DNA of 64,000 nt from Mayamaea pseudoterrestris. Lineage: Eukaryota. The notes below the pieces were generated by a model that worked only from the letters and a program-made list of their open reading frames with translations, was not told the origin of the DNA and ran no database searches. Below, piece by piece: positions 1-44,351 of this stretch (within the stretch, counting starts at the first letter, position 1; each line of letters starts with the position of its first letter). Where the stretch lies: the NCBI GenBank assembly GCA_027923505.1, contig BROI01000015.1, positions 1-64,000 on the forward strand. Reading direction: 5' to 3'. Made by a program: the position numbers and the translations under genes.

Positions 1-161
1 GTCTTGATGGTGGGAAGCAGGATGATGCTTAGTAAAGTAATCAGCAAGGTTTCCAGCTCCCTTGCTCCAATAGATTTGGAATTGCTTTTGGTCTACGCGG
101 TCGCGTAGCCAGTAGAAACGCATGTCAATAGCTTTGGAGCGTTTTTGTTTAACAGTGTCGT
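1..161 (-). mobile_element. RNase H C-terminus of copia element A, separated from the rest of pol by the 162-5436 insertion
   Basis: Minus strand reads DTVKQKRSKAIDMRFYWLRDRVDQKQFQIYWSK/GAGNLADYFTKHH (one 1-nt frameshift near 60). It continues ...TDNVTAAGIAN at 5437 in frame once the insertion and one TCGT copy are removed. Confidence 0.92.
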
Positions 162-264
162 TAGCAGGTTGCACACGAAAAACAGCAACCAGAGCGATAC
201 CTTTACTTGTCATAGTGCATGGTGCCTTGTATGCAGCATATAGTACACTAGCAGACGGAAAAGT

Positions 265-323
265 AGCAGCGTGTTTAGAGGTGATATAGCCGGTTATCCT
301 TGGTTCGATTCCGAGGTGCGCTA
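265..323 (+). ncRNA. tRNA-like element without a normal anticodon arm, copy in TRIM 5' LTR
   Basis: B box GGTTCGATTCC (302-312) in a T arm CTTGG-TTCGATT-CCGAG. Acceptor-like stem AGC(A)GCGT/GTGCGCT plus discriminator A323. D-loop-like TTAGAGG. TTTT at 325-328. Confidence 0.7.
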
Positions 324-734
324 CTTTTAACGGCATAGTGATACTACTTTCTGTTGCATACCTGCTATGGTAGCGTCCCTATCGAGAGATCTGGACTGAG
401 GCTGCTGGTTCGAGTTGCGATCGAATCAAGCGAAGAAAAAGCAAAAATTCACTGGTTGCACGGGTTTGTCACGAACGAACGATGGGGAGTCGCGGACCCT
501 GGGGAGTGCACAAAGATGCGCCGAGCCCGAAACGCCGCAGGAAAAACTGAAAAGTGACATTCCCCCGCGAGACGAAAATGCCAGCTGAAACGGAAGACGA
601 GTTAGCACTATGACGCGCAAAGCTAGGGGAGTAGCAGGTTGCACACGAAAAACAGCAACCAGAGCGATACCTTTACTTGTCATAGTGCATGGTGCCTTGT
701 ATGCAGCATATAGTACACTAGCAGACGGAAAAGT

Positions 735-793
735 AGCAGCGTGTTTAGAGGTGATATAGCCGGTTATCCTTGGTTCGATTCCGAGGTGCGCTA
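735..793 (+). ncRNA. tRNA-like element, identical copy in TRIM 3' LTR
   Basis: Identical to 265-323 at offset +470. Confidence 0.7.
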
Positions 794-837
794 CTTTTAA
801 CGGCATAGTGATACTACTTTCTGTTGCATACCTGCTA

Positions 838-3800
838 CTGTCGCATCTTTATAATTGCGCGGCAACCTTACGCCGAATTTGTAGCGTACGCCGTTTGCTT
901 TCGATTTTCGTTTCGCCGCTGTTACCATCTGTCGAAACTTCTTTCGCTTCCGAGTGTAATGCTCCAGCTGCTTCCATCCTGGCTTGTCGAGTAAGCCGTG
1001 CTTGAGTCCATACTCTGCGATCGTTATCGGATCGTCCTTCTTCATGATCGCGAGAGGCTCCCACGTCGTCGTTCCGTCAGTCCATTCGACGAGAACGTTA
1101 CTTGAACTTCCTTTGTATGTCGGATCGTTCGGTTTCAAATTAAGCTCGTGTCCGATTACCTTCGTGAATACCCACTGAGTCGCCGGATCGTTTCGTATAT
1201 CTTCGTCCATCTGTCGTTCGATTAAATCCGACAGTTCGTTGTAACTTATTAAGTCTTTCGCTGGCTCCTCTCCCATTTGGATTAGGAAACCTTTCGTCGT
1301 TTCGAGTAGCTCGTTATCGCGTACTTCGATATATTCGCATACAGTCGCTCGCATTTTCTGACCGTTTTCGTGTTCCCTTACGAACGTGCGTCCGATGAGT
1401 TCGCTTGGAGAGAACAGAGGGCATTTATTCCCTGATTCTTGCTCAGCCCTTCTGAAGAACTTCGCTGGTACGTTGGCGTGGTTCGCCATCGGAATTGTTT
1501 CGTCGTCGTTTCCTTCGTAGTTGTCGTGACTACTTTCTGTCACATGCGTGCTATGGTAGCGTCCTGTCGCGAGATCTGGAGTTTCAAAATTTCGCTCGCT
1601 TGCGCGTGTAGCTTCTTCAGAAATCTCCCCTCCAGACTCAGGGAAGGAAGGCAACTCTCGTGGTAACAAGTAGCTGCGCGAGACCACGTTGGAGCGCGGA
1701 ATCGCCTGAAGCGTGTCGTCCGTCAGAACGAGAAAAGTCATGTGCGGACCGCTATTCTCTGCGATGCCCACGAATCGGCCGTTGCCAGATCGTACCGCCG
1801 AGGGAAAGCTCCCCTGCGCCTCAAACGTGACCGGTTCCCACCACCTTGAAATGTAACAAAGGCAAATATCCGGCAGATTTCCGAACGCAACTTCCGTTGG
1901 CGTGCGCCATCCCAGCGATTTCGTCGCGAGGACGTTCAGTATCATGATTACGAATTTAATCAGCAAACCCAGCAATGGCCTGGCGAACCCGAATCTCGTT
2001 GGAGTGTTCTCCATCATTGGCTTAATGTGCGACGTGTGACGTTCGCATGGATTTTGTTCTGGATGACCCGGTTCTGTGGTCACTTGAGGAATATTGTACA
2101 TCCGACAGAGATCCCTCACAGCCTTGCCAGTCTCCGACTTGGCATTGTCGCTGAGCAGTCCGTTAGAGCGCCCACTTCGCGGATAAAATCCTCTTAACGC
2201 TGGCTTGACATTTCGCTCTCCGACTTCATCGGGTACGCGCGTGTAAAAACTTTCTCGTCCAACAAAGAGCTGCATCTTAGTAGCTCCCCATGCCCTAGAA
2301 TTCCATCATCCAAAGCTGGCGTGTCAGAGTGATGTCAGTCCGTGGCGAATAGTTCGGCAGACCGCTGAACGTTCGCGGCGGAAATCGTGATTTCGTGAGG
2401 TGTCGAATGGTAATCGCGGGTGTGCGCTGAGATGATACCATGCTTCCGTGTGACGTAAAGTCTGTTGAACGCGCTCAGTCGGGACCCATCCGGAGGTACG
2501 GCCGAAGAGCATTATAGTCCGGTTCCCTGCTTCGTAGCTTCCGCAAATTAACGCGTGAAAACTGAGCGCGCGTGTCGCACGCACCGATTGATCAGTACGT
2601 CAAGTTCGTCGCCAGTGCGTGTCGGCGTGTGACGATTGCGGTGCGTGATACCGTCATCATCGAATCGTTCGTCGAAAGATCCACAATCGTGATCTCGTTC
2701 GTCGAAATCGTCGTGCGCGTGCTCGACATCGTAAACAGTCGGGTCCCACGGCACGTCCGACGTCATGATGACAGTCGGATACTTATCCAAATCATCGAAC
2801 GTGGGTTTCGTCACGTCCACACCAGGCCATCGCCATGCAAAACGTAGCCCATTCGTTAAGTTGCGTGCGTCCGCCAAACATGGTCGTATCATGTCGGCAA
2901 TGTCCCTCACGCGCAATTGATTCGGGCAATTGAATCGTCGGTCTCGTCTCGCTTTAAAGCATACTGGTGACACAGAAGCAGAATGGTTTCGCCACTAAGG
3001 GTCTTTGCCAGTCCAGCTGCAGTGCCAATCTTGAGAGCTGGGACAATATGATCGTCAATACCAGTCACATCCACCTCGGCGTTCGTTTCCGAAACGACGA
3101 GCATGTCTCCTCCGCATAAGCCTCCGTTCGCGCCGCTGTCGATGAGCGCGCCTTCGTTGATCCGCTCGTAGTGTGCGCGATTGACGCGCATACGACGATG
3201 ACATGTTGAAGCTGAATGTACCTCGTCCGGTGTTATCAGTCGTCAACGATCCTGTCACTTGCTGAGTTGTAGTACTCGCATTGTTCGCTTGCAGAACCGA
3301 TCGTGCAGCCATTTGGACTGACATTCCACTATTGCCGGGCTGAATATTAATCGTGCCAGGAACGCTTGCGTGATCGTTCGCTACAGATTCCGTCGCGTGA
3401 CGCTCTTGATGCGCCGCGTTGACTTGCGTCTGCGTCGTAGCCGTGCCTCGTTGGTTGCGCGGTCGCCATCCGTTTTCGGGTGTCTTGGGCGCCGTCGCAC
3501 GCTTGTCCTTCAACTGCTTTCGCTGATCAAACTTCATCTCCAACCAGACTTCATCCTTCACGCTCGCGTGAGGTTTCTTCATGATCGCTGCAAATCGTTC
3601 CGCCGATAAGCCGCTTGGAGTCGCGCCGCCATTGCCGCCGCCGCCTCCTTTTCGTTCCACTAGACTGCGCTTGATTGATTGTGCGCTTAGTCTTCGTCGT
3701 CAATGGGTGTTTCTTGTCAGTATTGATGCAGCATTCTTCTAAGTGCTCGTACAACTGCGCGAAGTTGTCTTCTGAGTCGTGTTGGCCTATGTGTTTCTTG

Positions 3801-5436
3801 GGGCAATCATTCCGTCAAAACCTGCTAGTGATGCGCTGAATCCTGTGTGCTCGGAGAAAGGGTCGCGTAGCATGTCGTATCGTTGTAAACCTGTCAGAGC
3901 TTCTGCGTCCATTTCGAGCAGCCAGATGACTTTCTTGTAGAACAGTGCGAGAAATTCGATCGTCGGCCGTGACCACTTCTCGGTCAGCCGCATTCCCTGC
4001 AGTTCCGTTCGCGCGCGTTCCTTCTCGATGAGCAGTAGCGCCTTCTTCGTATCGCGTTCGCAATCGTTGGTAGACTTCGCGTCCGTCCATCGTCTTCTTG
4101 AACTGCTGTACTGCGAGTGATGCAGGACGGAGTTCGACAGTGCGTGAGAAAGATCCTGTATACAAACACATTCTTCTTTGCATACGCCTTCTGTTCTTTC
4201 GGTCCCTTTTCCTTCGGGTCATAATCGTCGTCAAAGACTTCGTGGAAGTCATGCAATGTAGCGATGACTTTCAACTCGGAAATCCACTGTTTCCACGAGG
4301 AATCCAGCTTCATTTCTTTACAATCCCTCGCCGAGAACTTGATAGACTTCGTAAATTGGTCTGAATACTTCTCGTCGTCTTCGTCGTCGCCGAGGTCCAG
4401 TATGGATCTCGGTGACTGCCGCATCTTCAAAAACACACTCGTCGGTGGCACCTTGTCGGCCGAGTCAGGCCTCGACTCGTTGCCTTCGTTCGTTAGCGTG
4501 GAGTCCGGATTCGTCCTTCTTGGATTCCGTTTCGCTTTCCTTCGCTGGAGGTTTCGCTCCGCTTCCGCTGCCCACGCTCGCAATGTTGCGCGCTTGGACT
4601 CGTTCCTTCGCTCGTGCTGTGACGAACGTCGCCAGCGTTTCGGTGGTCAGTTGCGACCATGTCTTGATGTCCGGCGACTCTTGCGCCAAATACCATTCGA
4701 TCGCGTTCGTGATCGTGCGTTGTTTCATCTTCGTTAGCGAGTGTTCGCTCGTTTCCTGCGTGACATTGTCGCCATCGTCAGTCGTCGTCGTTGTCGTCGT
4801 CGTGACGTTCCACTTCGTCGCGAAATCGTCGTACTCCATCTCGATCAGTTGCGTAAGCGATTCTACTCCGAGTTCGTCGAATAACTCCTTGAACTGAGGA
4901 TCTTGGAAAACGCCTACGTTCTCTTCGTAAACATGCGCAAACGCCGCGTCTTTCTGCGCGCGAGTTTCCGCCATCGTTGTCGTCGTGACAATGTTCTTGC
5001 TATCACCTGCGGAACTTTCCGGGCCAAGAACCAACGTGCGTCCACGTTACTTCGTAAATCAATAGTACTCTTCGTCGATAAAGTCTCTATGCCGAGGCAA
5101 TGAGTCTCAAGACAGTGTTAATCTTGTAACTTGTAAATCAAATCGTTGCACCTTTCGCTTGTAGCTGTCCTTGGATGGCCAATCCAAGCTTGCAGTTGCT
5201 ACAATACGAGAGACGAATAAATCGCTTTCTTAACTCTTCAAGCTTAGTAAGTCTGCTTGTTTCTACTCTATATCGCACTAGTTTCAGCAATATACTTGTT
5301 GAATCGCTTCGAAGCCGTCGCTGCCACGCATCACGCGATCGTGAGGCTGTGGTGAGCCGCGAGTGCCGCTGTGTCACCCTATCGGACATTCGGTGTGACT
5401 TGCCCGATTTTCGCTGTTTTCGTTCGCATCCTGCAA
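838..5436 (-). mobile_element. Copia-like element B (CoDi-like), frameshifted and 3'-truncated: 5' LTR, gag, protease, integrase; no RT, RNase H or 3' LTR
   Basis: Gag fragments from about 4973, protease ALIDSGANGGLCG (2907-3191), integrase LLSDNAKSE...TTEPGHPEQNPCER (797-2275). The ORF stops at YKFGVRLPRNYKDA where the TRIM begins. Protease-integrase order with no RT between them is copia-type. Confidence 0.88.
5190..5436 (-). repeat. Probable 5' LTR of element B (247 bp, termini TTGCAG...CTGCAA)
   Basis: 6-bp inverted termini. The outer end coincides with the break in element A pol and with the TCGT duplication. Only one copy is present, so the inner boundary is inferred. Confidence 0.7.
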
Positions 5437-8400
5437 TCGTTGGCAATGCCAGCGGCAGTGACGTTGTCAGTTTGTAGTGGTGTAGCTGGTTGAGGATGAC
5501 CCAATTCTTCTAGTAGATGACGAATGGGACAAGCTTCTTTGGCGTTGTGAAAGAGCGCACCAAGCTCCGCCTCGGCGGCACTAGAGAGGACTTCCTTCAT
5601 GATTTGACAGAGCACGTTGATGGCGCCGTTGTGGGGAGGAGGCTTGCTAGTAGGGCCAAGCGGAGACTCGGGCCAGCTGCTGAGGAAATGGAAACCACCA
5701 GCGCATGAGCGAGCCTTGGCGGCGGAGAGGTAGGAGGCATCGCTATGCTGCCACAAACACATTTCACTGGCAGTGAAGCGTACCACAGCATTGGGGTGCG
5801 AGGCGCAGTAATCGAGGACTTGGAGGACGGCGAGCATGGTTTTGTGAGTCGGGGCGGATTGTTTGGAGGCAATTTCGTTGAGCGCTTTGAGTAGTGTTGA
5901 ATCAACTGCGCGCGCGTAATAAAGAAGGACGCCCATTACTTCTTGTACTCGTGTAGCGTCAGCTTTATTGACAGTAGCAGTGTCGTCGGGCGCAGGAGCA
6001 AACTGTTGCTTGGCGCCGTAGACGGGCTTGAGCCAGGCGTGGGGCGCATGCTGGGGCTTTGTCGGCATTTGGTGTTGAAAGCGTTCGAGCGCCCGTTCAA
6101 TGTAGCCAGGCATGGAGATGTCACACGTGCCGTGCTTGTAGTCCCAGTCAATGGTGAGTCCACAGTAGCGAGCGCCAGTGAGATCCAGACTGACTTTGTA
6201 GGTGGCTTGGAGAGCAGCGAGCAAGTGATCCAGATCGGCCTTATCAGTGTATTTGATACCAAAATCGTCAACAACGAGCGAGAAGCAGATTGGTCGCGTT
6301 TCGTGCCGCCAGAAACCAGGCGTGAGCGGCGCGGGCGAGTAACCATGGGCGGCGAGGCGCTTGACGAGTAGGTCATGTGCCAGACGGCCAGCCTGCGGGA
6401 GACCGTACATGCCTTTGGAGATTTCAGTGTAGATGTAGCCGTTGTGCGCCTTGGAGTCAAGGTCGTAGAGCAAGCGGAAAGCGTCGGGAATGAGGTTGAG
6501 CGAGATGCGCATGTACTCCTTGGTGGCCATGGGCGTGTTCAGATAGAAGTCTTTGATGTCGATTGTAGCGAACCGCGCGCCAGGCGTAGAGATAACCGAG
6601 TTGAGGAGCACTTTAACGGTGGTCAAGTCGGCAGCTTTAGTAGCAGTGGCGCCAGGATAGTCGATGCGATCGCCGCCGACCGTGATGCGGACACGCCGAG
6701 GATTCTCCTTCTCGGGGCGCCAGGCGGAGACAATGCGGGCGTATGTAGCAACCTTATTGTCGGGTACGTCGCGATAGTGGATGAAACGGAGCGTATCGGT
6801 GCCTTTGATGTCGTTATAGCCTTGGCTGAGGCGCGCCAGCTCGTCAATCATGGAGGCTTCCCACTCGTTGCCTTCGCTGCACTCGAGCAGTTCGCGGATT
6901 TCAGCGACGCGACCAGTATCGGGATTGATGGCGCTGCCAAGATAGGCGAAACCAAGGCGGTTGCAAGTGGTTTCAATGTCAGTCCATTTGGCGACGCCAA
7001 GGTTGAACTCGCGAAGCGCCGTCATCGCCTTGCCTCTGGGGGTTGAGCGGACAAAGTCGGTAATGGGGCGCTGCGTCGGCTTGGTAGGAAAGATGGAGAG
7101 ACGGCTGGGACGCTTAGGATGAGGAGACAATGGGGAAGGACGTAGGAAACGGACTCGTTTAAGAGCAAGTTGTTCATTGCGGCGAGCTTGTTGGGGGGAA
7201 AGGGATGGCAACTCATCAGCGTGAGCGGAAGGCTCAGTGTGGAGCGGCGGGTCGGCGCGGGGTTTTTTGGTCTTGCGGCGGCGGCGGCGCGGTCCCGTGA
7301 CGTCATCATAGGTGACGGCAGGTGAGGTAGGCTCGTTAACGGACGGTGGCGCGGCGGGCGGGACGGCGGGCGTGGGGACTGGCGAAGGAGTTGGCGTTGG
7401 TGGCGAACTTGGTGAAGCCGCAGATGTCGTATCGGTGACACGAGTAGGTGCGCTTGCCGGAGAAGGGAGGGCCGCCGGAGAGGGGAGGGCATTGTCAGTC
7501 GGCACCCTCAGTTGTGGCGCAAACCCAGGCGGTGGAGCGACAGGCGGTGAGTTGTCCACCCTCAGAGGTGGCGCAGGGTTGGCAGCAGGTGGCTGATAGA
7601 GAGCGATGAGGTCGGCAAGAGCACGGACGCGACTGTCGGTAGTCGGTGCAAGGGCCGCTGGCGGATCGGTGGAGGCAATGGCGGTCTTGAGGTCTTCTAA
7701 GGCAGCATGAATGCGAGAGTCGGGCGTAGAGAGAGGCATTGGCAGTGCAGGAGGAGGCAGCCATGCGACTTGATGGCATGTCCGTTCGGCGTTCGTCTTC
7801 CAAATCCACACGCGATGGCCTCGATACGAGTCAAGAGCTGGACCGAGATACCAACCATCAAGGGCGCGGGGCTCAAAGGAGCCACGGTCTTCAGTAGGAA
7901 TATGAGCAAGAACACGGATGCCGATAGGGGCCAGAGGCGTGCGGTTGAGGTCGAAGAGTCCATGCACTAGCGTGTAGGCAGACAGCTTGGGATTGATGCG
8001 AGAGCCGCGGCACATATTGAGTGTGATTTCAGTCTGGGGAATGAGTTTATCCCACAAATGGAGAGGAAAAGCTTTGTCGACACTGCAAAGGATGGCAACA
8101 AAATGGTTTTCAAACGTGCCAATGGCTCGTTCCGCGAGGTTGCGGCGGTGCAATCCATGACCGACCAGCTGGAAATCTATCTTTTGGTCGTGCATGTAGT
8201 CTTTTAACAGCTGGGAGCATTCGTTATCAAGACGCTGGAGCTGGGGTTGGAGACCAGCGCGAGTGAGGCGTTTAAGAAGGGATTTGTAGGCCTCGAGAAT
8301 GCAGGTGGCGTTGCGATTTTTGAATGGTTCGAGCCAGATATAATTGCTGTCGTAATCATATAGAACCATGATGTATTGATTCCCGTTGAGCGAGGGATTA

Positions 8401-9248
8401 AACACTTTTCCAGTTTGATCAGTATAGATTTGACCAGTAGGCTTGAAAAAGGAGGCGTAGCAGTGGTGGCGCGTCGCAACGGTTCCTTCTTGGAGAGGAA
8501 AGAACACGTCGCTGTCGTCGTCGTCTGCGTCCACGTTTGTTGTTGTTGACTTGGTGGAGCGAATGCCTTGACGCAAAGCTTTCATGTGGCCTTTATGCAT
8601 GGCAATGGAGGCGGGCGGGTGCTTGCGGAGGTTGCTGGCGGTGAGGCCAGGAAAATGCGGGAGCAAGCCTTTGGAAAGGGCAGCCTCAAGGGTGCGGAGA
8701 CTGGGCGAGCCAAGGGAAGCATGATAGAACTTGAGGAGCTCAGGCAACTTGGGATCGCCAATGGTAGTAAGAGCGCTCTGGGGCAAAGGCGCAGGGAGCT
8801 CCATTTGCCAGAGGCCAGTGGCTGGACACCGAGCGCCACTCAGGACGAGCTCTTCTTTATAATGCACGAGGACTCGTTCCTTGTCAAGGGAAATGAGGCA
8901 GCCTGCATCACAAAGTGTGCCAAGGGAAAGTAGTGAGTGAGTTGATAAAGCAGGAACAATATGAGCTTTAGTGGCCGACTCGGGAAGGCCGGGGATGTTG
9001 AGCGTTGCCTCATGAGTGGAATGCATGAGGGTGCCGTTGGGAGTTTGAATTGCAAGTGGGGTTGTCGTAGCAATCTTGTTTAAGATGGGAGCGCTAACGG
9101 TGACAAAGTGGGCAGAGGCGCCACTGTCAGCTATGAGGGTAAAAGTAGGATTGGCGGGAGGACCAGTGATAGAAGATAACGAGAAACAAGTACTATAAGC
9201 ATGTGACATGGTGCTATAGGTGTTATCAATCACTGGCGTCCCTCCATC
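5437..9248 (-). CDS. Pol of copia element A (protease, integrase, RT, start of RNase H), interrupted at 5437
   Basis: IADSGASAHF protease; YTDQTG...RLDNE...NLAERAI integrase; IDIKDFYL, KGMYGLPQAG and LVVDDFG RT; HSDASY, SAAEAE and TDN RNase H motifs. Open frame begins right after the gag stop. Confidence 0.93.
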
Positions 9249-10376
9249 TCAGCTGCGAGGGTTGGCGGGATTGCGAGGACTCATCTCGGTAAGGGTGCCA
9301 CCCATGGTATTGTCAGCGGTCGCCGTGCTGACATGATTTGGACCAGGGTTTTGGCAAGTAGCGCTAGTGTGGCGGTAGTTGAGACCAAAGCCATGAGTGT
9401 GGCAATAGTGACGGGCGCGTGGTGAAGCGGTGGGCGCTGCCGCTGGCGTAGGCGTGATAGCTGGAGCAGGCGTGGTGGGTGTCGCAGGGGTGACACGAGT
9501 AGGTGCGGGCGTCACATCGCGAATGGCGGCCATTGCCTGCTGCAATTGGCGACGGAGGCGAGTTAACTCGGTGGTTTGTGCGATGTTGGCGTGATCCTGA
9601 TAGCCAGCTTGGCCAGCCGTGCGGTGCTCCAAGCGCTTGTCGTTGGCCTTGTTGAAACGGGACTGGAGATTCTCCATGGTGCGGTCCACCTCGTCGACAT
9701 CGCGGTCGTAGGCGGCGAGATCGGCGGCAAACACGCCACTGTTGTTGAGGACGAGGAGCGTGTCGTGGATCTGTTGTTCCGGGGGAATGGGCGTGCCGGC
9801 ATCTTCGGCAAAGTCGTTGATGTCGGTGATGCGACTCCAAATGCGCTCGATGGGATCGTTGGGATCCCATGGCGTGAGGAGACGAAGAACGTTGTCTTTG
9901 CGTTCCTGGTTGGAAACGCGTCCGTAGGCGGTGGTGAGATGCGTGAGGATCTGCAGCGTGGTGAGATTGGCGTAGATGGAACGACGGTTTCTGAGGACGG
10001 AATAGTAGTCTTCGTCGAGAGCAGCGAGTAGGCAAGCCTTGAGAGCAGTGTCGGCAACGAGCATGAGCTTGAAATCGTCAGATTTTTCCTTGTGAATGCG
10101 ATTGCGCTCAGTCAGTTGGTTTTGAGTAAGGCCAGCGACTTGAAGACCGAGCTCCTCGGGGCGAGCTGGGCGGTCAAAGGGAGCGTCTGGATCAGGGAAG
10201 CGTTCGAGGAGTTCGTCGTCCGTCATGCACAGAAAATCGTGGCCGTTGTCATCAGAACGGGCAGGAATCTTGCGAGCGTTGGCGCGGAGTTGAGCAGTGG
10301 CAATGGTAAGAGTAGAGTAAGTAGGCTTGCCTTCGATGATGGTCAAAGGATCGAGCGTAGGGAGCGTGATGTTCAT
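9249..10376 (-). CDS. Gag of copia element A
   Basis: Long ORF directly upstream of pol. First ATG gives MNITLP. C-terminal YCHTHG...HTSATC...H zinc-knuckle-like motif. Ends in a TGA in frame with pol. Confidence 0.85.
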   Translation of the reverse strand: MNITLPTLDPLTIIEGKPTYSTLTIATAQLRANARKIPARSDDNGHDFLCMTDDELLERFPDPDAPFDRPARPEELGLQVAGLTQNQLTERNRIHKEKSDDFKLMLVADTALKACLLAALDEDYYSVLRNRRSIYANLTTLQILTHLTTAYGRVSNQERKDNVLRLLTPWDPNDPIERIWSRITDINDFAEDAGTPIPPEQQIHDTLLVLNNSGVFAADLAAYDRDVDEVDRTMENLQSRFNKANDKRLEHRTAGQAGYQDHANIAQTTELTRLRRQLQQAMAAIRDVTPAPTRVTPATPTTPAPAITPTPAAAPTASPRARHYCHTHGFGLNYRHTSATCQNPGPNHVSTATADNTMGGTLTEMSPRNPANPRS

Positions 10377-10477
10377 CTTGGGATGGGAGGCACGGAGGAG
10401 GCGGCGGAGAAGGGTACGGAGGAGCTGGAGGATTCTGTGAGGAGCAATGGTAGCGGGTGGGTGAGATGTAACAATTC

Positions 10478-10660
10478 TGTTGAAGGGCCGCAAGGTACTA
10501 CAGCAGACACTCGAAGCAAACTAGTTCAATAACGTTGAATTGTTACATTATGAGCTGATGGCGGTAAGCGCCAGCAGACTCTTGCTAATCGAGTGGCTGA
10601 GAGCAAAGCGATGGAATGGATGGTGGACAGAATGGGATATTAATGAGTCATGGCGAGTGT
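10478..10660 (-). repeat. Probable 5' LTR (R-U5 part) of element A; outer boundary unresolved
   Basis: Ends ...CCCTTCAACA about 100 bp before the gag ATG. No matching TGTTG start is found before element C coding sequence takes over near 10690, so it is probably truncated. Confidence 0.55.
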
Positions 10661-10689
10661 CTTCTCCGCCTCGTAGCTTGCGACGCCTA

Positions 10690-13600
10690 CTGGCGCGTGA
10701 GCTGCGGCGCTGTGACCTCCTGAGAGGCGGGCCATCTGGCTCCCTTGTGGGCTCGGGAGTGGGACCGTCCGGGCTCCCTTCTTCGTTGGCCGCTGGGTCT
10801 ATTGGGTCGGGCGCGTCCGGTTGTTCTGGGACTCCTTGGGCCCCCGGTGTAGTGGACCCGGCCGGTCCGTCGGGCTCCTGGGGTTCAGCGGCTTCTTCGA
10901 ATGTGACCTGTGCCGGGGGACCGTTGAGGGTTTCGTTGCCTGGGTGCAGCGTCTCCTGTGGGGAGGCTCCCTTGTTGGCGGCCAGGAAGTGGCACTTGTC
11001 CTGCCAGTGTGAAGTTGGTAGGCAATCATTGAAGGACTTGCGCATGGTCTGAAAGCTTGGGTCAAAGTGTACGTGAAACTGTGGGGAGGCGAGGCCGGTT
11101 TCGAGTGACAGTACCAAGGCCACCGACCTGGCGTGGTGGGCTGAAGGGCCCAGGTATACCCCTACCCGCGCTCGGTCTACCCACTTGTCCTTGCTGGTCA
11201 CGTAGGTGTACACGGGGCACCCGAACGGGGAGTAGTGCTTGGGATTGAAGGAGGCAGGGGCCCCAGTGAAGGTCTCCACTGGTATGCTGTTGTCTTTGAG
11301 GCCTGGCGTGATGTTCTTGGTCTCATTGGCCAGTCTTAGCGCGTAAGGCCACAAGTTGGCATTCACCGCAGTGGGCCATCGGCGGGCGGCGTGGATCATC
11401 ATTGTTCTGGCTTGATCCTGTAGCTCCCTGATGTGTCGCTCGGCTATACCGTTCTGAAAGTGGGCATTGACGCCACAGAATGTGAGCACTTGGTTGGCTT
11501 GCGGTACGCCGTGCTTGCCAACTTGTCGGCAAACCTCCATTTCGGCTGCCGTAGTGTTGACTCCAACCGACGAGCGTACTCGACTGCCTTTAGTTTCTTC
11601 GCGGGTTTTGCAAGTGGATGAAGGAAAATCTGCTGAACTGGTCCACAAAGATAGTGGCGCACATGTAGCGGCGTTTAGTCGGTATGCCTCTCAGTTGGGC
11701 TATCAATCCTGGAGTATAGGAGACCAGTTGGTCAACCGAGACACATTCCCCAGGCCGGGTGGCCAGTACCTTGGAGTCCTCTAGCTGGGCTTGCGTAGGC
11801 TTGGTCCTCCATGGTCTCTTCGTGGCCTTGCCGTAGAGGCAGCTGGTGCACAGAGGCACTGGACACTTGGCTAATCGACTTGGGAGGATGCCCATGCGGG
11901 ACATTGCTTGTATTCACCTTGGGGACGCATGGTTGAGCTTATGGTGCCAGCGCAGGAATTCTGCCGAGGCATCTTGCGGTCTGGTGTCCTCCTCGTCCGG
12001 GCTAACCTGGTCTTGGATCGAGCCTCGTCCGGTCGGGCCGTCAAGCTGGAAATCCGTTGTCAGCGGCTGGGTGCGAGGCGGCTCGGCCGGAGTGACCGTG
12101 GGCGATGGGTGCCCGTCATCGGGCGGGGAGGATCCCATGTAGTCATTCCCCCCCCGGATGCCAGGCGGAAGACTGTGCTGGGAGGTCGTACGGGAGCACG
12201 GCCGCGGCGTAGCAGGTAGGATGCTCGTCGCTGACCGGTGGGATGGTGGCGAGAAAAGCGGAGTAGTTGGCAAAGCCGGGTGCCGAGTTGAGAATGCCCA
12301 CATTGGAGGCGGGATCCAGGGGCACCGTGCGTTGGCGTCGGCACTGATCCCAGTAGAGGACAATGCGATCCGAGTAGGTGAGTGAGTAGGTGCCATCCTT
12401 GTCCGGGTCGTGATCGTTGGCCAGTTGTGCCCAGTGCTGGGGGCTCAGGAGCCGACTGTGCGCTTTGGCGTCGTAGATCATTTTGGGGATGTCGATGGTG
12501 TAGGGGGCTCCCTCGTCGTCCTCAATGGTGTAGCGGCCATGACCCTGGGCGAGTGGGCTGCCAGGCGAGCCATGGATGCCGGTGAGGGTGTGCTGGATCG
12601 CCTTTGGTGGCGAGTAGAAGTCCGATAAGTGGCTGGTGATGCAATAAGATGCGCAATTGTCGACTCGAAGTTGGAGGGAGTCGGTATCAAAGCGGACTTT
12701 GCGTGAGGAGGAGCGGCCGGTGGGGCAGTGGGAGGCGAACGCTAGCCATGGTGACAAGCGTCCATCGGTGCGCGTGGTGGCCCATTCGACGAGTGTTGAC
12801 AGTGGTGTCCCACCGTTGTGTTGAGTAGGTGCGCGTGTCGTATCTGGAGGTGCGCGAGTGTGACTGTCCGCTGAATAGGTGAGGCGTAGTTGTGAATCTC
12901 CCTTGTTGACTGCGCTGGTAGGAGGTGAGAACGGCGTCGCCTTTGGGTTGCGATAAAGGTAGCTCTTATAGGCGTTGTACGCTCGCGCCCGTCGTATGAA
13001 GTCAACTGGGACGAAGGGAGCTTGACGTGTGTTGTAGCGCGTGGGTGTCTCCCTTTTAGGACGATGGCCGAGGTGTGCGTCGGCCGTGACGCTGATAGCC
13101 CAGCAGGCAATGTGATAGTAGCAGAGGCGACGGGCCCAAGTGCGTGACTTGCTGCGCCGAAGGTGGTAGCTGAATGGGTTGACGGACTTGCGCTTGCGTC
13201 GTTCGGCCTTGTAGGGAGGCCATGGCCATGGTAGACGGTGGAACCAGCTCAGCGCTCGGTCCCATAGTTGAAGCGGACTGGCCGAGGAAGGTTTGAAGGT
13301 GTGGCGCGAGTTGGTGCTGGCGCTCTGGTGCGGTGTAGCTGGTGAGTGGCAGATGAATCTCAGGGCGTTCAGGAGTTTACTCATCAGCCCGTAAAACATT
13401 AAGATAAAGTTCCACGGGCATCCCCATCAGCTGCTCTCGTCGCCGCTGTCCTGTTGGTAGATGGCCATTTGCGCTTGGAGCGTCGATGCTGGGGTGGCTG
13501 TGGCGGCCTCCGGTGTGGCGGCCTCGGGGGTCGCAATCTTGCCTTCCTTCTGTGCCTTGTGGCAGTCGGCCGCTGCGTGCTGGCCCCACTTGGCGTGGTG

Positions 13601-15226: not shown

Positions 15227-15299
15227 CCTCGGTGTAAGCTTGCATAATATATACAGGTGTGTACTGCCAACAGTCGTATGTGTGCATCGCCAAACAACT

Positions 15300-39254: not shown

Positions 39255-42200
39255 TGTTGGATCTAGAATATATCTTGCGCGCCCTTGAAGCGACACTAAT
39301 GATTAAGCAGAACAGAGTCAATAAAACCACTTTACTTATTTTCTCCAAGAAGTGATCGTCCTCGATCCACTCCTTCGGTTGCCGCTTACCGCGCTTACTT
39401 AAATGTGACCGTCTTCGTGACGTCACCGCTGCCGCTTCGGTTTGGGTTCTCATCCATGCTCAACACACTCCTTTGGGCCGAGTAGTACTTACTGCTCGAG
39501 GCCAGATTCATAACCAGGTTGCGGAGCTTGCCAAACTGGGCTCCCTGCAATGGTTTCGTGAAGAAATCCGCGACCATGTCTCCGGTCGGACAATGCTCAA
39601 TGTTGACTTCACCAGCTGCCACGCGATCTTTCACAAAGAAGTACCGAACATTCATGTGTCGCGTGCGCTTTGTACTTGAGCTTCTGCCATTCTTTTCCAA
39701 CAGCATTGAACTCATATTGTCTTGATACAATTTCGTGTCTTTGACCCCGAAACCTTGCGCCTTCAGAAAATATCCTGTCCACAGCAACTGCGGTAGCACA
39801 TCATGAACTCCCACAACTTCGCTCTCCGTCGAGCTTCTTGTTACCAACTTCTGTTTAGCCGACGTACTGTACACTGATCCTTGGCCAAGTGTCATTGTTC
39901 CACCAGTGTGACCCTTCATGTCTGGGTGCACCGCGTACGACGCATCCACCCACCACTGGACTATCCCGGACTGGTCCGCCTTCAGCGTCAACACCATGTC
40001 CACGCTTCCGCGTAAATATTTAATCACTCTTGCAGCCTTCTTATAGTCGTCTTCGTCAGGCTGCTGCAGCCTCGTGCTCAAGAAAGAAATCGCTGTGCGA
40101 ATATCCGGTCGCGCTCGCTGACTCAGATACAGACACTGCATCACAATCGTCACAAAAATCTGCTTCTTCGCTTCGCTCAACATGACAGGATTTTCCGATA
40201 TCTGAAACAAGTGACTGGCTGCCGGAGTAGCTGCCGTTCCATCCATGTCGTCTGGCGCATGATGCAGGATGTTCTTCACATAGTCAACCATGTTGATTGC
40301 TACTTCTCCAGGCTTAGTATAGTCCAATACCATGCCGAGGTAGTCGTGCACTTTTCCGCGTGACTTATTCATTGGAGTCTCCTTGCCAAACTCCTCATCC
40401 ATCTGCGCGATGAACTCATCCACTACGCTCACGTCGACGTGCGAAATCTTCAAATCGTCCACGTGCCATCCCACGGTGATTTGCTTCCCATTGACAATCT
40501 TGTTGCACACACACGGATCGTACGGGTTCTTCTCGAAGCCCCACTCAAGCAATTTTGCGGACAACTTCTCCCAGAATAGTCGCGCTGCTCGAAGCGTACC
40601 ATAAAGCGCCATGAGTAATTCAACATACATGACTTTCTCGCCATTCTCCATTGTGACGCAAGGCTCGTACATCTCGCGATCAATTTCCAACAGTAGCTCC
40701 ACCATCTTCCCAGTGAAACGAACGTGCACCAACTCATCCATTTCCGCTTGCATGAAAGCACCCGGTACATCAACCACAGCAACCTCGCGCCCTTCCATAG
40801 CGTCAATGATAGCTGTCAGAAAGATGGCCTCTGTCGCTATCGTTGGAGATGCTGCGTCTTCCTTTGCAGTGTATGCTCGTTGCTTGCGTCCATCCGCGCA
40901 TCCGCGTCCCTTCACAGTCCCGCATCTCTTGCGCTTGAGAAACATCAAATACGCCAGAGCGTCCTTGCGCTGCTGCGGAGTCAGAGTGCATTGGGGGACT
41001 GCCTTCATGACGTGCCTGTCGTGTAGCTGCTGCATTTCCTTGCGCACTGCCTCCACTCCAGCATCGCCAAAAGCCTTTAAACCTTGTCGCATATTCATCT
41101 GTGCCGTGACGAGTGGCTCCGACACTTCCTCTGCAGCGTCGAGCGTGAACAAATGAGCGAACGAGCGAGGTTTGCGCGCACGCAGGCCATACCGACCAGT
41201 GCGTGGGCCATAGCGCGCATCGAAATCCTCTTCGTCTGCAGCAGCTGGCACTCCTTCAATTTCGCCTTCATCGGGCACTCCTTCAATTTCGCCATCATCC
41301 ACGGCTGGCGCGTCGTCAAGTTCGCCGTCAATGGCCTCACCATCCTCGTCGTTCGGCACTCCTTCGATTGCGCCGTCAGCACCATCGTCGTCGTCGTCGT
41401 CGTCATAATCAGAGTCATCATCATCCTCGGCGTCATCTTCGTGCCACATGACTGGCTCAGCAGCCTCCGCAACACGGTGGCGGTCCATGAACACGATGCC
41501 CGGATTGGCCTTCTGTTGACGAGCGAGACGATGCACGCGCTCAATGACATCATCAGGCATGGGCAAAGGCGTAGCGTGCCCACGATTCAGAACTTTGCCC
41601 GAAGACAAACTGAGGAAATAAAACCCACCCTGCACATTACCAGTCGGGCGCAGAGCCAGCGCACCGATCGTGCGCGCCTGCATGTCATTGCTGTGCGACT
41701 CATGCGTTTGCACATACTGACCAAATTCATACTTGCAATGCCGATTAAAGTCAACTGTCTGACCAGTCACAATAGTGCGTGGACTGAGATCCTTCGAAAT
41801 GCCACGCTCGTTCGGAAACGCATTCAACCAAAACACGGCAGACTTCGTCATTTCGATAACCAAGCGTGCCGGCACGTGCTTAAATGGCAACGTGTTGTAT
41901 GTCGCGCGCACCCGTTCTTTCACGACACGGATAAAACGTTCAATTTCGCCAACGTGTTCATCCTCAGATGTCGCATTGAGCGCCACTCCGAGATCAGCCA
42001 ACGCGCCAAGCATTGGAGCGAACTCCCCATCCATCAGAGCCGCGACGACACGGAACCCACCGCGTGCGTAAATCTTCAACACAGACTCGATTGCCTTCAA
42101 CATAACCGGAAGCGTACGGTTTTGAATCACCTCAACCGTAGCAAAACGAATGCTGCGGGAGAACGTCACCAACATAGGGACTTTGTTGATATACATGATG

Positions 42201-44351
42201 TCAGCACAAAGAGTAACGTCTCGATAGCGACTCATGATAGCCGGTGGAAGCTGCTCAACAATCGCAGGCTTCACCAGATGCGACGCGCGACGCGTCGTCT
42301 TTCCTTTTAACGAGCCAACATCTGGTCCAAAGATGTGCTCAGCAGCCAGGATGTCGGCCTTCGTCACAGGACAGTTCGGCAACTGATTGCTAGTAACGAT
42401 GCGCAGGTAATCCTTGAGGCTTGGCCGTCCAATTTTGATTTGCAGTTCCCTAGCTCTAACAGCGCGTAAATAGTCATCATTGGTGTAGTTAGTACGGTTA
42501 TCGTCTACCGTAGTCAACATCGCCACTCCATCCTTGACATCGCTGCGCTTGCCCTTCGAAAAGCTCTCGCAAACATACAGCCCAGAGTCAGTCTCGACAA
42601 ACTCTCGCTGCTTACCATCCGGCTTCTCCACAACGAACATTGGACGATCCACGCCGTGCATGAGATACTCCACGGTAAACTTCTTGCGGACTTGCGCCAA
42701 ACTCAAAATGTTCGCCAGTCCCTGCGGATACCACCACACCGGACCATAGCCCTCCAGGTCGCCCATCATGTTCGTCCTTACTGTACCAGCGTTGCACTTG
42801 ATCACCATCCACGTTGGCACCGGGCGAATGTTCGTCAGCATCTTGGCGTTGCAGAACAGATCCACTGTCGACTGATTGTCCAAGAGCACAGCCTTCTTCG
42901 AGATGTTCACCTTCGGCGGCTGCGCGAACATGTATCCGACCTCATCGTCGTCATCGCTTTCTTCCTCGCTACCCAGCGTGAAGTGCTGCGCCCCACTAGC
43001 CTCTGCAGCCGGCGCACTCTCCGTAGACTCCGTTCTCGTAGGACAGTCTCGCTGCACATGACCAACCTGTTGACAGGTCCAGCATCTGGGAGGGTCACGC
43101 GCTGTACCAGTCGTGTGAAACGCCACGCCCTCGTTCGTTGGCAACGTGGCTTCTCCATCCGCATGCTCACGACGCTGCATGATGTTGTATGCATCGTGGA
43201 TCGTCAACGGGAAGTTGTCGTGCCCGTCGAGGTAGCAGTTGCGCAAGTGCTTGCAATACCCAGCGTATTCGCCCGTTGCGCCACGCACGAAAAGCATCGC
43301 AAGCTCGAGCTCTTCGGCGGCCTTGATATCCTCCTTGTTCGCCTTGTTACGATTGTCATCCTTGGCAATGTTCAACGCCACAATCTCGTTGTGCATCGTG
43401 ACGCCAACCGCCTTCGCCACGTCTGCCAGCGTGACCATGCTTTCGTAATATTTCTGCAGGCTTTCGCGCGCTCCTTGAGTACGTCCGAACAACTCAGCTT
43501 GAATGTCCACGACTTGATCCACAAGTTTGCAGCGCCCTTCGTACGTATGCGAGATCTCCTTGATAATCGCCAGCAACTTAATTCCGTCCGTGTCCTCCTC
43601 GGCGTCTCGGAACTTGGCGTGCGACTTGACACGATCCTTCATACGCTCCGTGCATTGTCCATGCAACACGGCGTAGAGACCAGCGAGGAAGTCGGAGTAT
43701 ACACGCACGCGCTCGACATGCTCTTTCTTGTCGGCCTTGTATTCCTCGAGCATTATGGACCAGTCCGAGTCCGTCGTGTCGGCATCCTTCGTTGGACGTG
43801 CAGGCTCGTCAGGAATCTCCAGTTCCACGTTGCGCATGCCCTTGAGCAGCTCCTTGGTATATTTCTTGTAGGAGCGCCCGACGAAAGTGATGATCTCGTT
43901 CGTCGTACGGATGAATCCATCGGGATCGCGCGAACCGTTATAGTCGTAGATGAATCCAGCGAGCGTCGGCTCGCTTCCTTGGAAATTTCCACTCGGCGCA
44001 CGACTCGGTCCGTTGAGTCTGTTACCATTGCCTTGATTCCCGGAACGATTCCCAGCACGATTCCCACGACGATAATGACGGTTGCGTCGGTTTCCTTCGC
44101 TTGCTGGCGGAGCGGGAGGTGCACCTCCACCGCTCGACGCCGCTCCTGTCGTCGGAGTATTGCTCGTCGAAGACATGTCTTTTCACTCGCTTCTTGGAGA
44201 AAATGTTGGATCTAGAATATATCTTGCGCGCCCTTGAAGCGACACTAATGATTAAGCAGAACAGAGTCAATAAAACCACTTTACTTAAATGTGACCGTCT
44301 TCGTGACGTCACCGCTGCCGCTTCGGTTTGGGTTCTCATCCATGCTCAACA
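39255..44351 (-). mobile_element. Full-length Ty1/copia element D with LTRs 44204-44351 (5') and 39255-39465 (3')
   Basis: LTRs TGTTG...CAACA, identical except for a 63-bp indel. Purine tract AAAGGAG just before the 3' LTR. Palindrome GTGACGTCAC in U3 (39417-39426). Flanks ATGGG and GTGAG do not match, so there is no TSD. Confidence 0.96.
39395..44176 (-). CDS. Intact single Gag-Pol polyprotein of element D (1593 aa)
   Basis: CWTCQQVGHVQRDC knuckle, LLDNQST protease, ADIMY...DGEF...EIER integrase, VDVPGAF/ALYG/WHVDD RT and VDASYA...STESE...QDN...ADFFTKPL RNase H, in copia order. Confidence 0.96.
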   Translation of the reverse strand: MSSTSNTPTTGAASSGGGAPPAPPASEGNRRNRHYRRGNRAGNRSGNQGNGNRLNGPSRAPSGNFQGSEPTLAGFIYDYNGSRDPDGFIRTTNEIITFVGRSYKKYTKELLKGMRNVELEIPDEPARPTKDADTTDSDWSIMLEEYKADKKEHVERVRVYSDFLAGLYAVLHGQCTERMKDRVKSHAKFRDAEEDTDGIKLLAIIKEISHTYEGRCKLVDQVVDIQAELFGRTQGARESLQKYYESMVTLADVAKAVGVTMHNEIVALNIAKDDNRNKANKEDIKAAEELELAMLFVRGATGEYAGYCKHLRNCYLDGHDNFPLTIHDAYNIMQRREHADGEATLPTNEGVAFHTTGTARDPPRCWTCQQVGHVQRDCPTRTESTESAPAAEASGAQHFTLGSEEESDDDDEVGYMFAQPPKVNISKKAVLLDNQSTVDLFCNAKMLTNIRPVPTWMVIKCNAGTVRTNMMGDLEGYGPVWWYPQGLANILSLAQVRKKFTVEYLMHGVDRPMFVVEKPDGKQREFVETDSGLYVCESFSKGKRSDVKDGVAMLTTVDDNRTNYTNDDYLRAVRARELQIKIGRPSLKDYLRIVTSNQLPNCPVTKADILAAEHIFGPDVGSLKGKTTRRASHLVKPAIVEQLPPAIMSRYRDVTLCADIMYINKVPMLVTFSRSIRFATVEVIQNRTLPVMLKAIESVLKIYARGGFRVVAALMDGEFAPMLGALADLGVALNATSEDEHVGEIERFIRVVKERVRATYNTLPFKHVPARLVIEMTKSAVFWLNAFPNERGISKDLSPRTIVTGQTVDFNRHCKYEFGQYVQTHESHSNDMQARTIGALALRPTGNVQGGFYFLSLSSGKVLNRGHATPLPMPDDVIERVHRLARQQKANPGIVFMDRHRVAEAAEPVMWHEDDAEDDDDSDYDDDDDDDGADGAIEGVPNDEDGEAIDGELDDAPAVDDGEIEGVPDEGEIEGVPAAADEEDFDARYGPRTGRYGLRARKPRSFAHLFTLDAAEEVSEPLVTAQMNMRQGLKAFGDAGVEAVRKEMQQLHDRHVMKAVPQCTLTPQQRKDALAYLMFLKRKRCGTVKGRGCADGRKQRAYTAKEDAASPTIATEAIFLTAIIDAMEGREVAVVDVPGAFMQAEMDELVHVRFTGKMVELLLEIDREMYEPCVTMENGEKVMYVELLMALYGTLRAARLFWEKLSAKLLEWGFEKNPYDPCVCNKIVNGKQITVGWHVDDLKISHVDVSVVDEFIAQMDEEFGKETPMNKSRGKVHDYLGMVLDYTKPGEVAINMVDYVKNILHHAPDDMDGTAATPAASHLFQISENPVMLSEAKKQIFVTIVMQCLYLSQRARPDIRTAISFLSTRLQQPDEDDYKKAARVIKYLRGSVDMVLTLKADQSGIVQWWVDASYAVHPDMKGHTGGTMTLGQGSVYSTSAKQKLVTRSSTESEVVGVHDVLPQLLWTGYFLKAQGFGVKDTKLYQDNMSSMLLEKNGRSSSTKRTRHMNVRYFFVKDRVAAGEVNIEHCPTGDMVADFFTKPLQGAQFGKLRNLVMNLASSSKYYSAQRSVLSMDENPNRSGSGDVTKTVTFK

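What the first reader, a model, noticed from the sequence alone, without database searches (positions are those of the whole stretch)
10466..10553. Tf1-like self-priming signature in copia element A
Seen: directly after the LTR end (...CTTCAACA, 10478) the sense strand reads GAATTGTTACAT (10477-10466). This is the exact reverse complement of ATGTAACAATTC inside the LTR (10548-10537). An inner stem TATTGAA/TTCAACA (6 of 7) is possible, and TCATA (10553-10549) immediately precedes the complementary segment. Known: fission yeast Tf1 and related Ty3/gypsy elements prime from the first ~11 nt of their own mRNA annealed to the PBS; TCAHW is a proposed diatom initiator-like motif. Inference: tRNA-independent self-priming in a Ty1/copia lineage, which I do not know to be established.
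Basis: partly seen in the sequence, partly recalled or inferred. Interest (0 to 1): 0.8.

Follow-up and report, generated by a model that had tools for sequence, protein, structure and literature searches.

The report
Self-priming signature in diatom copia retrotransposons
A diatom copia-type jumping gene carries, just after its left repeat, 12 bases that pair exactly with 12 bases inside that repeat, and its relatives keep the pairing with different letters, which suggests these elements start copying themselves with their own RNA rather than a host tRNA.

Summary
ATGTAACAATTC (10548-10537, minus strand) is the reverse complement of GAATTGTTACAT (10477-10466), and TCATA directly precedes it. 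Alone it is weak: 19.5% of 200 shuffled windows hold a 12-bp inverted repeat of this kind. No second LTR copy lies in the window, because the element's pol is split by a 5.28-kb nested insertion and its 3' end runs off the left edge.

The strength comes from relatives. All 6 related contigs that hold the LTR-leader junction carry an 8-15 bp stem at the same place with different sequence. In register, 80 of 84 cells are Watson-Crick, against 14-30 of 84 when slid. A second, distant copia lineage shows the same feature: element B in this window, whose LTR end is verified, and two relatives. A TCAHW initiator-like motif puts the predicted start 0-3 nt before the LTR arm in 7 of 10 elements.

Best reading, about 0.7: Tf1-like self-priming. 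The transcription start and host tRNAs could not be tested. Self-priming has already been predicted for plant TAR copia elements, so this is a new member of a known kind.

The parts
10537..10548 (-). Arm 1: LTR-internal 12-mer ATGTAACAATTC, the candidate self-primer at the 5' end of R
   Evidence: It is the exact reverse complement of 10477-10466. It pairs in the MFE fold. Homologous arms with different sequence occur in all 6 related loci that hold the junction.
10466..10477 (-). Arm 2: candidate primer-binding site GAATTGTTACAT, starting at the first base after the inferred LTR end
   Evidence: It does not begin with TGG. The seven family members carry seven different 12-mers at this place, with a mean of 4.5 of 12 identical positions.
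10549..10553 (-). TCATA, which matches the proposed diatom initiator-like motif TCAH+1W; the predicted +1 is T10550, 2 nt before arm 1
   Evidence: the motif is taken from PMC4686930. The transcription start was not measured.
10478..10536 (-). 59-nt loop, the rest of the inferred R-U5, ending in TTCAACA (LTR terminus)
   Evidence: The TTCAACA-type end is shared with L002 and resembles L001 and L003. The LTR end itself is proven only in lineage B.
10478..10650 (-). 5' LTR of element A. The 3' end is inferred and the 5' boundary is unresolved; candidates are 10629 (TGTCC), 10650 (TGACTC, where G+C drops) and 10705 (where contigs of runs X1 and X2 stop matching)
   Evidence: No second copy is in the window.
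9249..10376 (-). gag of element A (ATG 10376-10374), ending in an in-frame TGA at 9251-9249
   Evidence: It is 31% identical to the gag of L001.
5440..9248 (-). pol of element A (protease, integrase, reverse transcriptase, most of RNase H), in the same frame as gag
   Evidence: There are 497 homologues at E<=1e-20, several named Ty1/copia-type reverse transcriptase of diatoms.
160..5439 (.). Nested insertion of a high-copy 5.28-kb repeat that splits the pol of element A
   Evidence: Contigs of 3 of the 4 runs laid join 159 to 5440. Summed contig depth over the insertion is about 10-50 times that over element A. No Pfam or Rfam match was found.
7..159 (-). Continuation of the pol C-terminus of element A (KAIDMRFYW...ADYFTKHH); the rest, including the 3' LTR, lies beyond the left edge of the window
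39255..44351 (-). Copia element B: 5' LTR 44351-44204, 3' LTR 39465-39255, and a single 1593-aa gag-pol ORF
44190..44203 (-). Element B candidate primer-binding site TTTTCTCCAAGAAG, starting at the first base after the verified 5' LTR end ...CCAACA
39339..39352 (-). Element B arm 1 CTTCTTGGAGAAAA, directly preceded by TCA. It lies in a 63-nt segment that is present in the 3' LTR only

Best explanation
Element A is a diatom Ty1/copia retrotransposon that most likely primes its own reverse transcription in the manner of Tf1.

Proposed mechanism, all steps inferred:
1. Transcription starts at or just before 10548, at the TCAH+1W-like TCATA.
2. The first roughly 12-14 nt of the RNA fold back over a 59-nt R-U5 loop and pair with the 12 nt that begin at the first base after the LTR.
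3. The element's RNase H cuts after the paired segment.
4. The freed 3'-OH, at C10537 opposite G10477, is extended into U5. This explains why the primer-binding site abuts the LTR end.
5. Because plus-strand strong-stop DNA copies the primer, the two arms are renewed as exact complements in every cycle.

What is shown: the complementarity, its placement, its conservation through wholesale sequence change in two copia lineages, and an initiator-like motif beside the primer arm.

This particular copy is dead. Its pol is split by a nested insertion.
For: 1. The two 12-mers pair exactly, and the second arm starts at the first base after ...TTCAACA.
2. In family A, pol proteins are 38-59% identical to that of element A. 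All 6 related loci that hold the junction (L001 with two copies, L002, L003, L006, L017, L019) have a perfect stem of 12, 12, 9, 15, 12 and 8 bp at the same place, with 30-54 nt loops.
3. In register, 80 of 84 cells are Watson-Crick, against 14-30 of 84 when the partner is slid by 1-3. All 12 positions show 2-3 different pair types.
4. In 4 of those 6 loci the stem is the single longest inverted repeat of the locus.
5. In lineage B the RT is about 22% identical to A. The LTR end of element B is proven by its LTR pair, and the 14 nt after it are complementary to an LTR segment. L044 and L043 have 15-bp stems at the same place.
6. None of the 10 candidate primer-binding sites starts with TGG, and they differ from one another. 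A shared tRNA primer would keep them alike.
7. TCAHW has its predicted +1 at 0-3 nt before arm 1 in 6 of 9 elements (binomial P about 2e-8 if the elements were independent, which relatives are not). L043 also has offset 0. All 3 lineage-B elements have offset 0.
8. The element meets the published operational criterion for a self-primer: at least 10 bp complementary to a region starting 0-5 bp after the 5' LTR (PMC6317226).
Against: The transcription start is unmeasured, because no RNA run was listed. In family A the predicted +1 lies 2-5 nt or more before the arm, not at its first base as in Tf1. L017 has no TCAHW at all.

Host tRNAs could not be compared.

In family A the LTR end is inferred, not proven. 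All related contigs are cyclic or tandem-type assemblies, and the 3' LTR of element A is off the window. The LTR 5' boundary of element A is unresolved, and no TG start sits at the contig break at 10705.

The stems of L003 (9 bp, tied with two others) and L019 (8 bp, tied with one other) are not significant on their own.

The 5' LTR of element B lacks the primer arm.

In five more distant copia contigs (L023, L046-L049) I found no LTR-end-adjacent stem, or could not place the LTR end.

The 12-bp repeat alone occurs in 19.5% of shuffled windows.
Confidence: 0.7

Rival explanations
1. The stem is a conserved RNA structure of the 5' leader with another role, such as packaging, dimerisation, translation control or RNA stability. 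Reverse transcription would then be primed by something else.
For: The stem is conserved and is predicted to fold. No priming step was observed. Fungal GalEa copia elements carry a conserved hairpin at the place of the primer-binding site whose role is unknown (PMC5445492, passages read).
Against: A generic hairpin has no reason to start exactly at the LTR end (0 or -1 nt) in all 10 elements. Nor has it reason to end abruptly at 12 bp without G-U pairs in 4 of the 7 family-A elements. No other conserved segment or TGG-initiated segment follows the LTR that could serve as a primer-binding site.
Confidence: 0.15
2. This is self-priming of a different geometry. Arm 1 lies upstream of the transcription start, in U3, so it is absent from the RNA 5' end. 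The copy in the 3' LTR part of the RNA, or a second RNA, pairs with the primer-binding site.
For: The transcription start is untested. In L003 and L019 the initiator-like motif lies 5 and 9 nt before the arm, and L017 has none. In element B only the 3' LTR holds the arm.
Against: TCAHW has its +1 at 0-3 nt before the arm in 7 of 10 elements. This reading has no precedent that I found in the passages I read.
Confidence: 0.08
3. The two arms are a DNA-level feature: terminal inverted repeats of a very short (about 80 bp) LTR, read as TGTAACAATTC...GAATTGTTACA.
For: Both arms can be read as TG...CA ends in the window and in L001.
Against: In the relatives a polypurine run GAGGGTG followed by TGT(T/A) lies 88-245 nt before arm 1. 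It is conserved as the peptide GEGVL in 55 of 120 homologues. The k=141 cyclic contig L003 starts exactly at that TGTTG. In element B the proven LTR ends before arm 2.
Confidence: 0.03
4. The repeat is a chance inverted repeat.
For: 19.5% of shuffled windows have a 12-bp repeat of this kind.
Against: The stem recurs at the homologous place in all 6 related loci and in 3 of 3 testable elements of lineage B.
Confidence: 0.01

Closest known systems
Tf1/Tf2 of Schizosaccharomyces pombe (Ty3/gypsy, Tf1/sushi group), where self-priming is shown experimentally
   Same: A segment at the start of the transcript is complementary to the primer-binding site just after the 5' LTR. It is short, 11 nt in Tf1 and 12 nt here. 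No tRNA-type primer-binding site is present (review PMC7175516, passages read).
   Different: This element belongs to another superfamily: integrase lies before RT, and the RT is of RVT_2 type. The predicted start is 2 nt before the arm rather than at its first base. The RNase H cut and the U5-IR-type inner stem are not shown here. The intervening R-U5 is only 30-59 nt in family A.
Plant Ty1/copia TAR lineage (Houba, Osr-1), where self-priming is predicted
   Same: These are copia elements for which an LTR segment of at least 10 bp complementary to the region 0-5 bp after the 5' LTR was taken as a self-primer (PMC6317226, passages read). Element A meets that criterion.
   Different: The host is a diatom, not a plant. 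Relationship to TAR was not tested. Here the pairing is backed by covariation in two lineages and by an adjacent initiator-like motif.
Tj1 of Schizosaccharomyces japonicus
   Same: A self-primer in the 5' LTR is proposed from complementarity to the primer-binding site, and a stop codon separates gag from pol (PMC4600332, passages read).
   Different: Tj1 was described in that paper alongside the Ty3/gypsy elements Tf1 and Tf2, and its host is a fungus.
Conserved hairpin site of fungal GalEa copia elements
   Same: These are copia elements without a tRNA-type primer-binding site, with a conserved hairpin at its place (PMC5445492, passages read).
   Different: The GalEa site is a local palindrome. 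Its authors found no complement of it in the LTR. Here the partner lies in the LTR, 30-97 nt upstream.
CoDi groups of diatom Ty1/copia elements (Maumus et al. 2009)
   Same: They are diatom copia elements with short LTRs (153-844 bp), TG/CA ends, and one or no stop between gag and pol (PMC2806351, passages read).
   Different: The main text says nothing about primer-binding sites or priming. I could not open its Additional file 1, which lists structural features. I did not assign A or B to a CoDi group.

Membership tests
Self-priming (Tf1-type) LTR retrotransposons, as a mechanistic class | The primer-binding site directly after the 5' LTR is complementary to a segment inside the 5' LTR | tested here: met
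   12 of 12 bases pair, starting 0 nt after the inferred LTR end. In element B 14 of 14 bases pair after a proven LTR end.
Self-priming (Tf1-type) LTR retrotransposons, as a mechanistic class | The complementary segment is the very 5' end of the element's mRNA | not testable with these tools
   No RNA run was listed. There is only indirect support: TCAHW with its +1 at 0-3 nt before the arm in 7 of 10 elements.
Self-priming (Tf1-type) LTR retrotransposons, as a mechanistic class | RNase H cuts the RNA duplex to free the primer, and the primer is found on minus-strand strong-stop DNA | not testable with these tools
   This needs a biochemical assay.
Self-priming (Tf1-type) LTR retrotransposons, as a mechanistic class | Complementarity is kept by compensatory change among relatives | tested here: met
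   80 of 84 cells are Watson-Crick, against 14-30 of 84 when slid, with 2-3 pair types at all 12 positions. Lineage B shows three different stems of 14-15 bp.
Self-priming (Tf1-type) LTR retrotransposons, as a mechanistic class | No host tRNA matches the primer-binding site | tested here: inconclusive
   None of the 10 candidate sites starts with TGG, and they differ from one another. No host tRNA set was available.
Tf1/sushi clade of Ty3/gypsy | Gypsy domain order (RT-RNase H before integrase) and gypsy-type RT | tested here: not met
   The integrase SH3-like domain (residues 434-481) lies before RVT_2 (residues 867-1053). Homologues are named Ty1/copia-type.
Ty1/copia (Pseudoviridae) | RVT_2-type reverse transcriptase with integrase upstream of it | tested here: met
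   RVT_2 scores 26.2 bits, below Pfam's 31.6 cut-off. However, 497 homologues reach E<=1e-20, many carry PF07727, and some are named Ty1/copia-type.
Ty1/copia (Pseudoviridae) | Two long terminal repeats flanking the element | tested here: inconclusive
   Only the 5' side lies in the window; the 3' end runs off the left edge. Element B has both LTRs.
Plant TAR-lineage copia (predicted self-primers) | At least 10 bp in the 5' LTR complementary to a region starting 0-5 bp after the LTR (criterion of PMC6317226) | tested here: met
   12 bp at offset 0.
Plant TAR-lineage copia (predicted self-primers) | Phylogenetic placement inside the TAR clade | not tested
   No TAR reference sequences were at hand.

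The most novel reading that the evidence does not exclude
Self-priming is the usual way, not an oddity, by which diatom Ty1/copia elements start reverse transcription. At least two lineages whose RTs are only about 22% identical compress the initiator, a 12-15 nt primer, R and U5 into 45-115 nt at the end of the LTR. Under this reading the 63-nt deletion in the 5' LTR of element B, whose 3' edge can be placed exactly at the predicted RNase H cut after the primer arm, is a footprint of that mechanism.
Probability: 0.4. Interest if true: 0.6.

Novelty: new member of a known kind. Interest (0 to 1): 0.5.

Why it matters
Copia and gypsy elements and retroviruses are nearly always described as tRNA-primed. 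Self-priming has been shown experimentally only for Tf1-type gypsy elements, and for copia it has only been predicted, in one plant lineage.

Diatom genomes are rich in stress-activated copia elements, yet the papers I could search say nothing about how these elements prime. A conserved, co-varying primer and primer-binding-site pair beside an initiator-like motif gives a directly testable model. It also gives a simple rule for annotating LTR ends and transcript starts in diatom elements. Finally, it is a second, independent copia case for the idea that hairpin priming is old or arises repeatedly.

Tried and rejected
- **Whole genome of the window:** none is held.
- **LTR pair of element A in the window:** none found. 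The weak ATTCAAC...AACTAGT likeness after the pol stop lies inside the nested insertion and scores no better than shuffles.
- **Viral contig scans** with pol of A, with alignment A2, and with B: no relatives.
- **Loci that do not hold the junction:** L004 and L005 lack it. L007 is a bacterial contig with a short chimeric end. L045 holds only the last 91 nt of an LTR, so arm 1 cannot be seen.
- **More distant copia contigs:** L023, L046, L047, L048 and L049 show no stem placed at an identifiable LTR end. L048 has a 10-bp repeat of unclear position.
- **Sequencing runs:** no RNA holder was listed among 7 runs. The 4 runs that were laid are contigs only, so they show no starts or ends of molecules.
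- **MAFFT alignment of the hairpin regions:** it did not keep the arms in register. I therefore counted pairs by script from the loop outwards.
- **Structure and family searches:** pol of A and the upstream ORF found nothing useful among solved structures. Rfam on 1-15000 found nothing. Pfam on the ORFs of the nested insertion found nothing.
- **Earlier findings of this scan:** three look-ups returned nothing.
not in the fold and not conserved.

Full report
**What is in the sequence**

On the minus strand the window reads ...CAGCTCATA ATGTAACAATTC (10548-10537), then 59 nt ending in CCCTTCAACA (10478), then GAATTGTTACAT (10477-10466) CTCACC.... The two 12-mers are exact reverse complements, and each occurs once in the window. 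This is the longest perfect inverted repeat with a 20-100 nt loop in the 64 kb; 8 such repeats reach 10 bp or more. It forms in the minimum-free-energy fold (z = -2.11; 9 of 200 shuffles fold as well). By itself it proves little, because 19.5% of 200 block-shuffled windows contain at least one such 12-bp repeat.

**The element**

Downstream on the minus strand lie a gag ORF (ATG at 10376-10374, ORF to 9249) and a pol ORF (9233-5379) in the same frame, separated by one TGA.

- pol carries an integrase SH3-like domain before an RVT_2 reverse transcriptase. Both Pfam scores are below the gathering cut-off.
- It has 497 homologues at E<=1e-20. Many carry PF07727, and some are named Ty1/copia-type reverse transcriptase of the diatoms Fragilaria crotonensis, Fistulifera solaris and Cylindrotheca closterium.

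No second LTR copy exists in the window, and the reason is structural.

- Homology to the family stops near 5440 and resumes at 159 down to 7, with the conserved KAIDMRFYW...ADYFTKHH end of RNase H.
- Contigs of 3 of the 4 public runs laid join 159 directly to 5440.
- So 160-5439 is a nested insertion. Its summed contig depth is roughly 10-50 times that of element A.
- The 3' LTR of element A lies beyond the left edge of the window.

The 5' boundary of the 5' LTR is unresolved. Contigs of runs X1 and X2 stop matching at 10706, but no TG start sits there. TG starts at 10650 and 10629 are alternatives. The upstream ORF (11648-10548) has only a weak integrase-like hit. It probably belongs to an older element.

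**Relatives of element A**

One metagenome contig (L001) and contigs filed under bacterial MAGs that are plainly eukaryotic retrotransposon DNA encode pol proteins 38-59% identical to that of element A.

Six loci hold the stretch between the end of pol and gag: L001 (two copies), L002, L003, L006, L017 and L019. Three other loci (L004, L005, L007) do not reach it and were left out. All six show the same layout:

1. A polypurine run GAGGGTG.
2. TGT(T/A), the LTR start.
3. 88-245 nt of U3.
4. A CA-containing motif, mostly TCATA(A).
5. Arm 1.
6. A 30-54 nt loop that ends in TTCAACA, TTTAACA, TTCAATA or similar.
7. Arm 2, starting directly at that end.
8. The leader and the gag ATG.

The perfect stems are 12, 12, 9, 15, 12 and 8 bp, and their sequences are all different. 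Counted from the loop outwards over 12 positions in 7 elements, 80 of 84 cells are Watson-Crick. When the partner is slid by 1-3 positions the count is 14-30 of 84. Every position shows 2-3 pair types. The seven candidate primer-binding sites share on average 4.5 of 12 positions.

In L001, L002, L006 and L017 the stem is the single longest inverted repeat of the locus. In L003 it ties with two others at 9 bp, and in L019 with one other at 8 bp, so those two are not significant alone.

The LTR start is supported in three ways. The sequence PPT plus TGTTG is conserved and appears as the peptide GEGVL in 55 of 120 homologues. The cyclic k=141 contig L003 begins exactly at TGTTG. Element B has the same layout.

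**A second lineage**

Element B in this window (39255-44351, minus strand) has an RT only about 22% identical to that of A and a real LTR pair.

- Both of its LTRs end in ...GATCCAACA. After the 5' copy comes TTTTCTCCAAGAAG (44203-44190).
- The exact 14-nt complement lies in the LTR at 39352-39339, directly preceded by TCA.
- It sits in a 63-nt segment flanked by TAAGTAA repeats. That segment is present only in the 3' LTR.
- Two relatives of B (33-63% identical) have 15-bp stems at the same place, again directly preceded by TCA: L044 and L043.
- L045 holds too little LTR to test.
- In five more distant copia contigs I found no such stem or could not place the LTR end.

**Transcription start**

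Kadono et al. 2015 proposed TCAH+1W as a diatom initiator-like motif (PMC4686930, passages read). Its predicted +1 lies 0-3 nt before arm 1 in 6 of 9 elements. The motif frequency in the window is 0.0064 per position. L043 also has offset 0. The exceptions are L003 (offset 5), L019 (offset 9) and L017 (no motif). No RNA data could be obtained, so the start remains inferred.

**Mechanism**

The geometry is what Tf1-type self-priming requires. [quoted passage not shown]

- Here the 3' end of arm 1 faces the first base after the LTR, so extension would copy U5 at once.
- The stems stop abruptly at 12 bp in 4 of the 7 family-A elements, and no G-U pair extends them. This fits arms that are recopied from each other every cycle better than a fold kept only by selection. 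That point is inference.
- Ten different candidate primer-binding sites, none starting with TGG, argue against a shared tRNA primer. The host tRNA set could not be checked.

**Comparison and novelty**

The element is not a member of the Tf1/sushi gypsy clade, but it appears to work like one. Self-priming has been proposed for the plant copia families Houba and Osr-1 and predicted for the TAR lineage, using a criterion that element A meets (PMC6317226).

For diatoms I found no statement on priming.

- Three literature searches found none.
- The main text of Maumus et al. 2009 has no relevant mention of PBS, tRNA or priming.
- Two later diatom transposon papers mention none either.
- Additional file 1 of Maumus et al. 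could not be opened and may list such features.

I therefore rate this a new member of a known kind, with good comparative support and no experimental support.

Noticed in passing
window 9249-9251; L001 1977-1979; L002 5269-5271; L003 1372-1374; L006 2089-2091: In 5 of 5 family-A members examined, gag and pol are in the same frame and are separated by a single TGA. A conserved purine-rich GAGGG(A/G)(C/A)GCC-like motif follows 3-8 nt later. This looks like programmed stop-codon readthrough. The motif also resembles the 3' polypurine tract GAGGGTG.
   Followed up: partly
window 160-5439: A 5.28-kb repeat is nested in the pol of element A. Contigs of 3 of the 4 runs laid skip it, about 5 bases fit either side of the joint, and its summed contig depth is roughly 10-50 times that of element A. 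It has 470-bp tandem repeats at 162-852 and several minus-strand ORFs, including one of 492 aa, with no Pfam or Rfam match. Its identity is unknown.
   Followed up: partly
window 39339-39401 versus 44281-44287: The 5' LTR of element B lacks 63 nt that the otherwise identical 3' LTR has. The segment is flanked by TAAGTAA direct repeats and holds the primer arm and the TCA motif. One placement of the deletion ends exactly after the primer arm. RT slippage during plus-strand strong-stop synthesis would explain a deletion in the 5' LTR only; this is inference.
   Followed up: partly
L001 213-377; L003 5312-5452; window 39395-39465: The pol reading frame runs on into U3 of the LTR, and the polypurine tract plus LTR start is read as the conserved peptide GEGVL (55 of 120 homologues, with a median of 29 residues after it).
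   Followed up: partly
window 10548-14755, minus strand: Three long ORFs lie upstream of element A (366, 418 and 302 aa). They have no Pfam family apart from a weak integrase SH3-like hit in the first, and a 22.7% likeness to the integrase region of the L001 pol (E = 0.34). They are probably an older, decayed copia-like element into which A inserted.
   Followed up: partly
window 15289-16119: A tandem array of 144-nt units, at least 5 copies at 79-100% identity.
   Followed up: no
L002-L006, L017, L019, L043-L049: Contigs filed under bacterial or cyanobacterial MAG titles are diatom-type copia retrotransposons. Several are cyclic k=141 assemblies with 141-nt terminal overlaps. This points to eukaryotic contamination of those bins.
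   Followed up: partly
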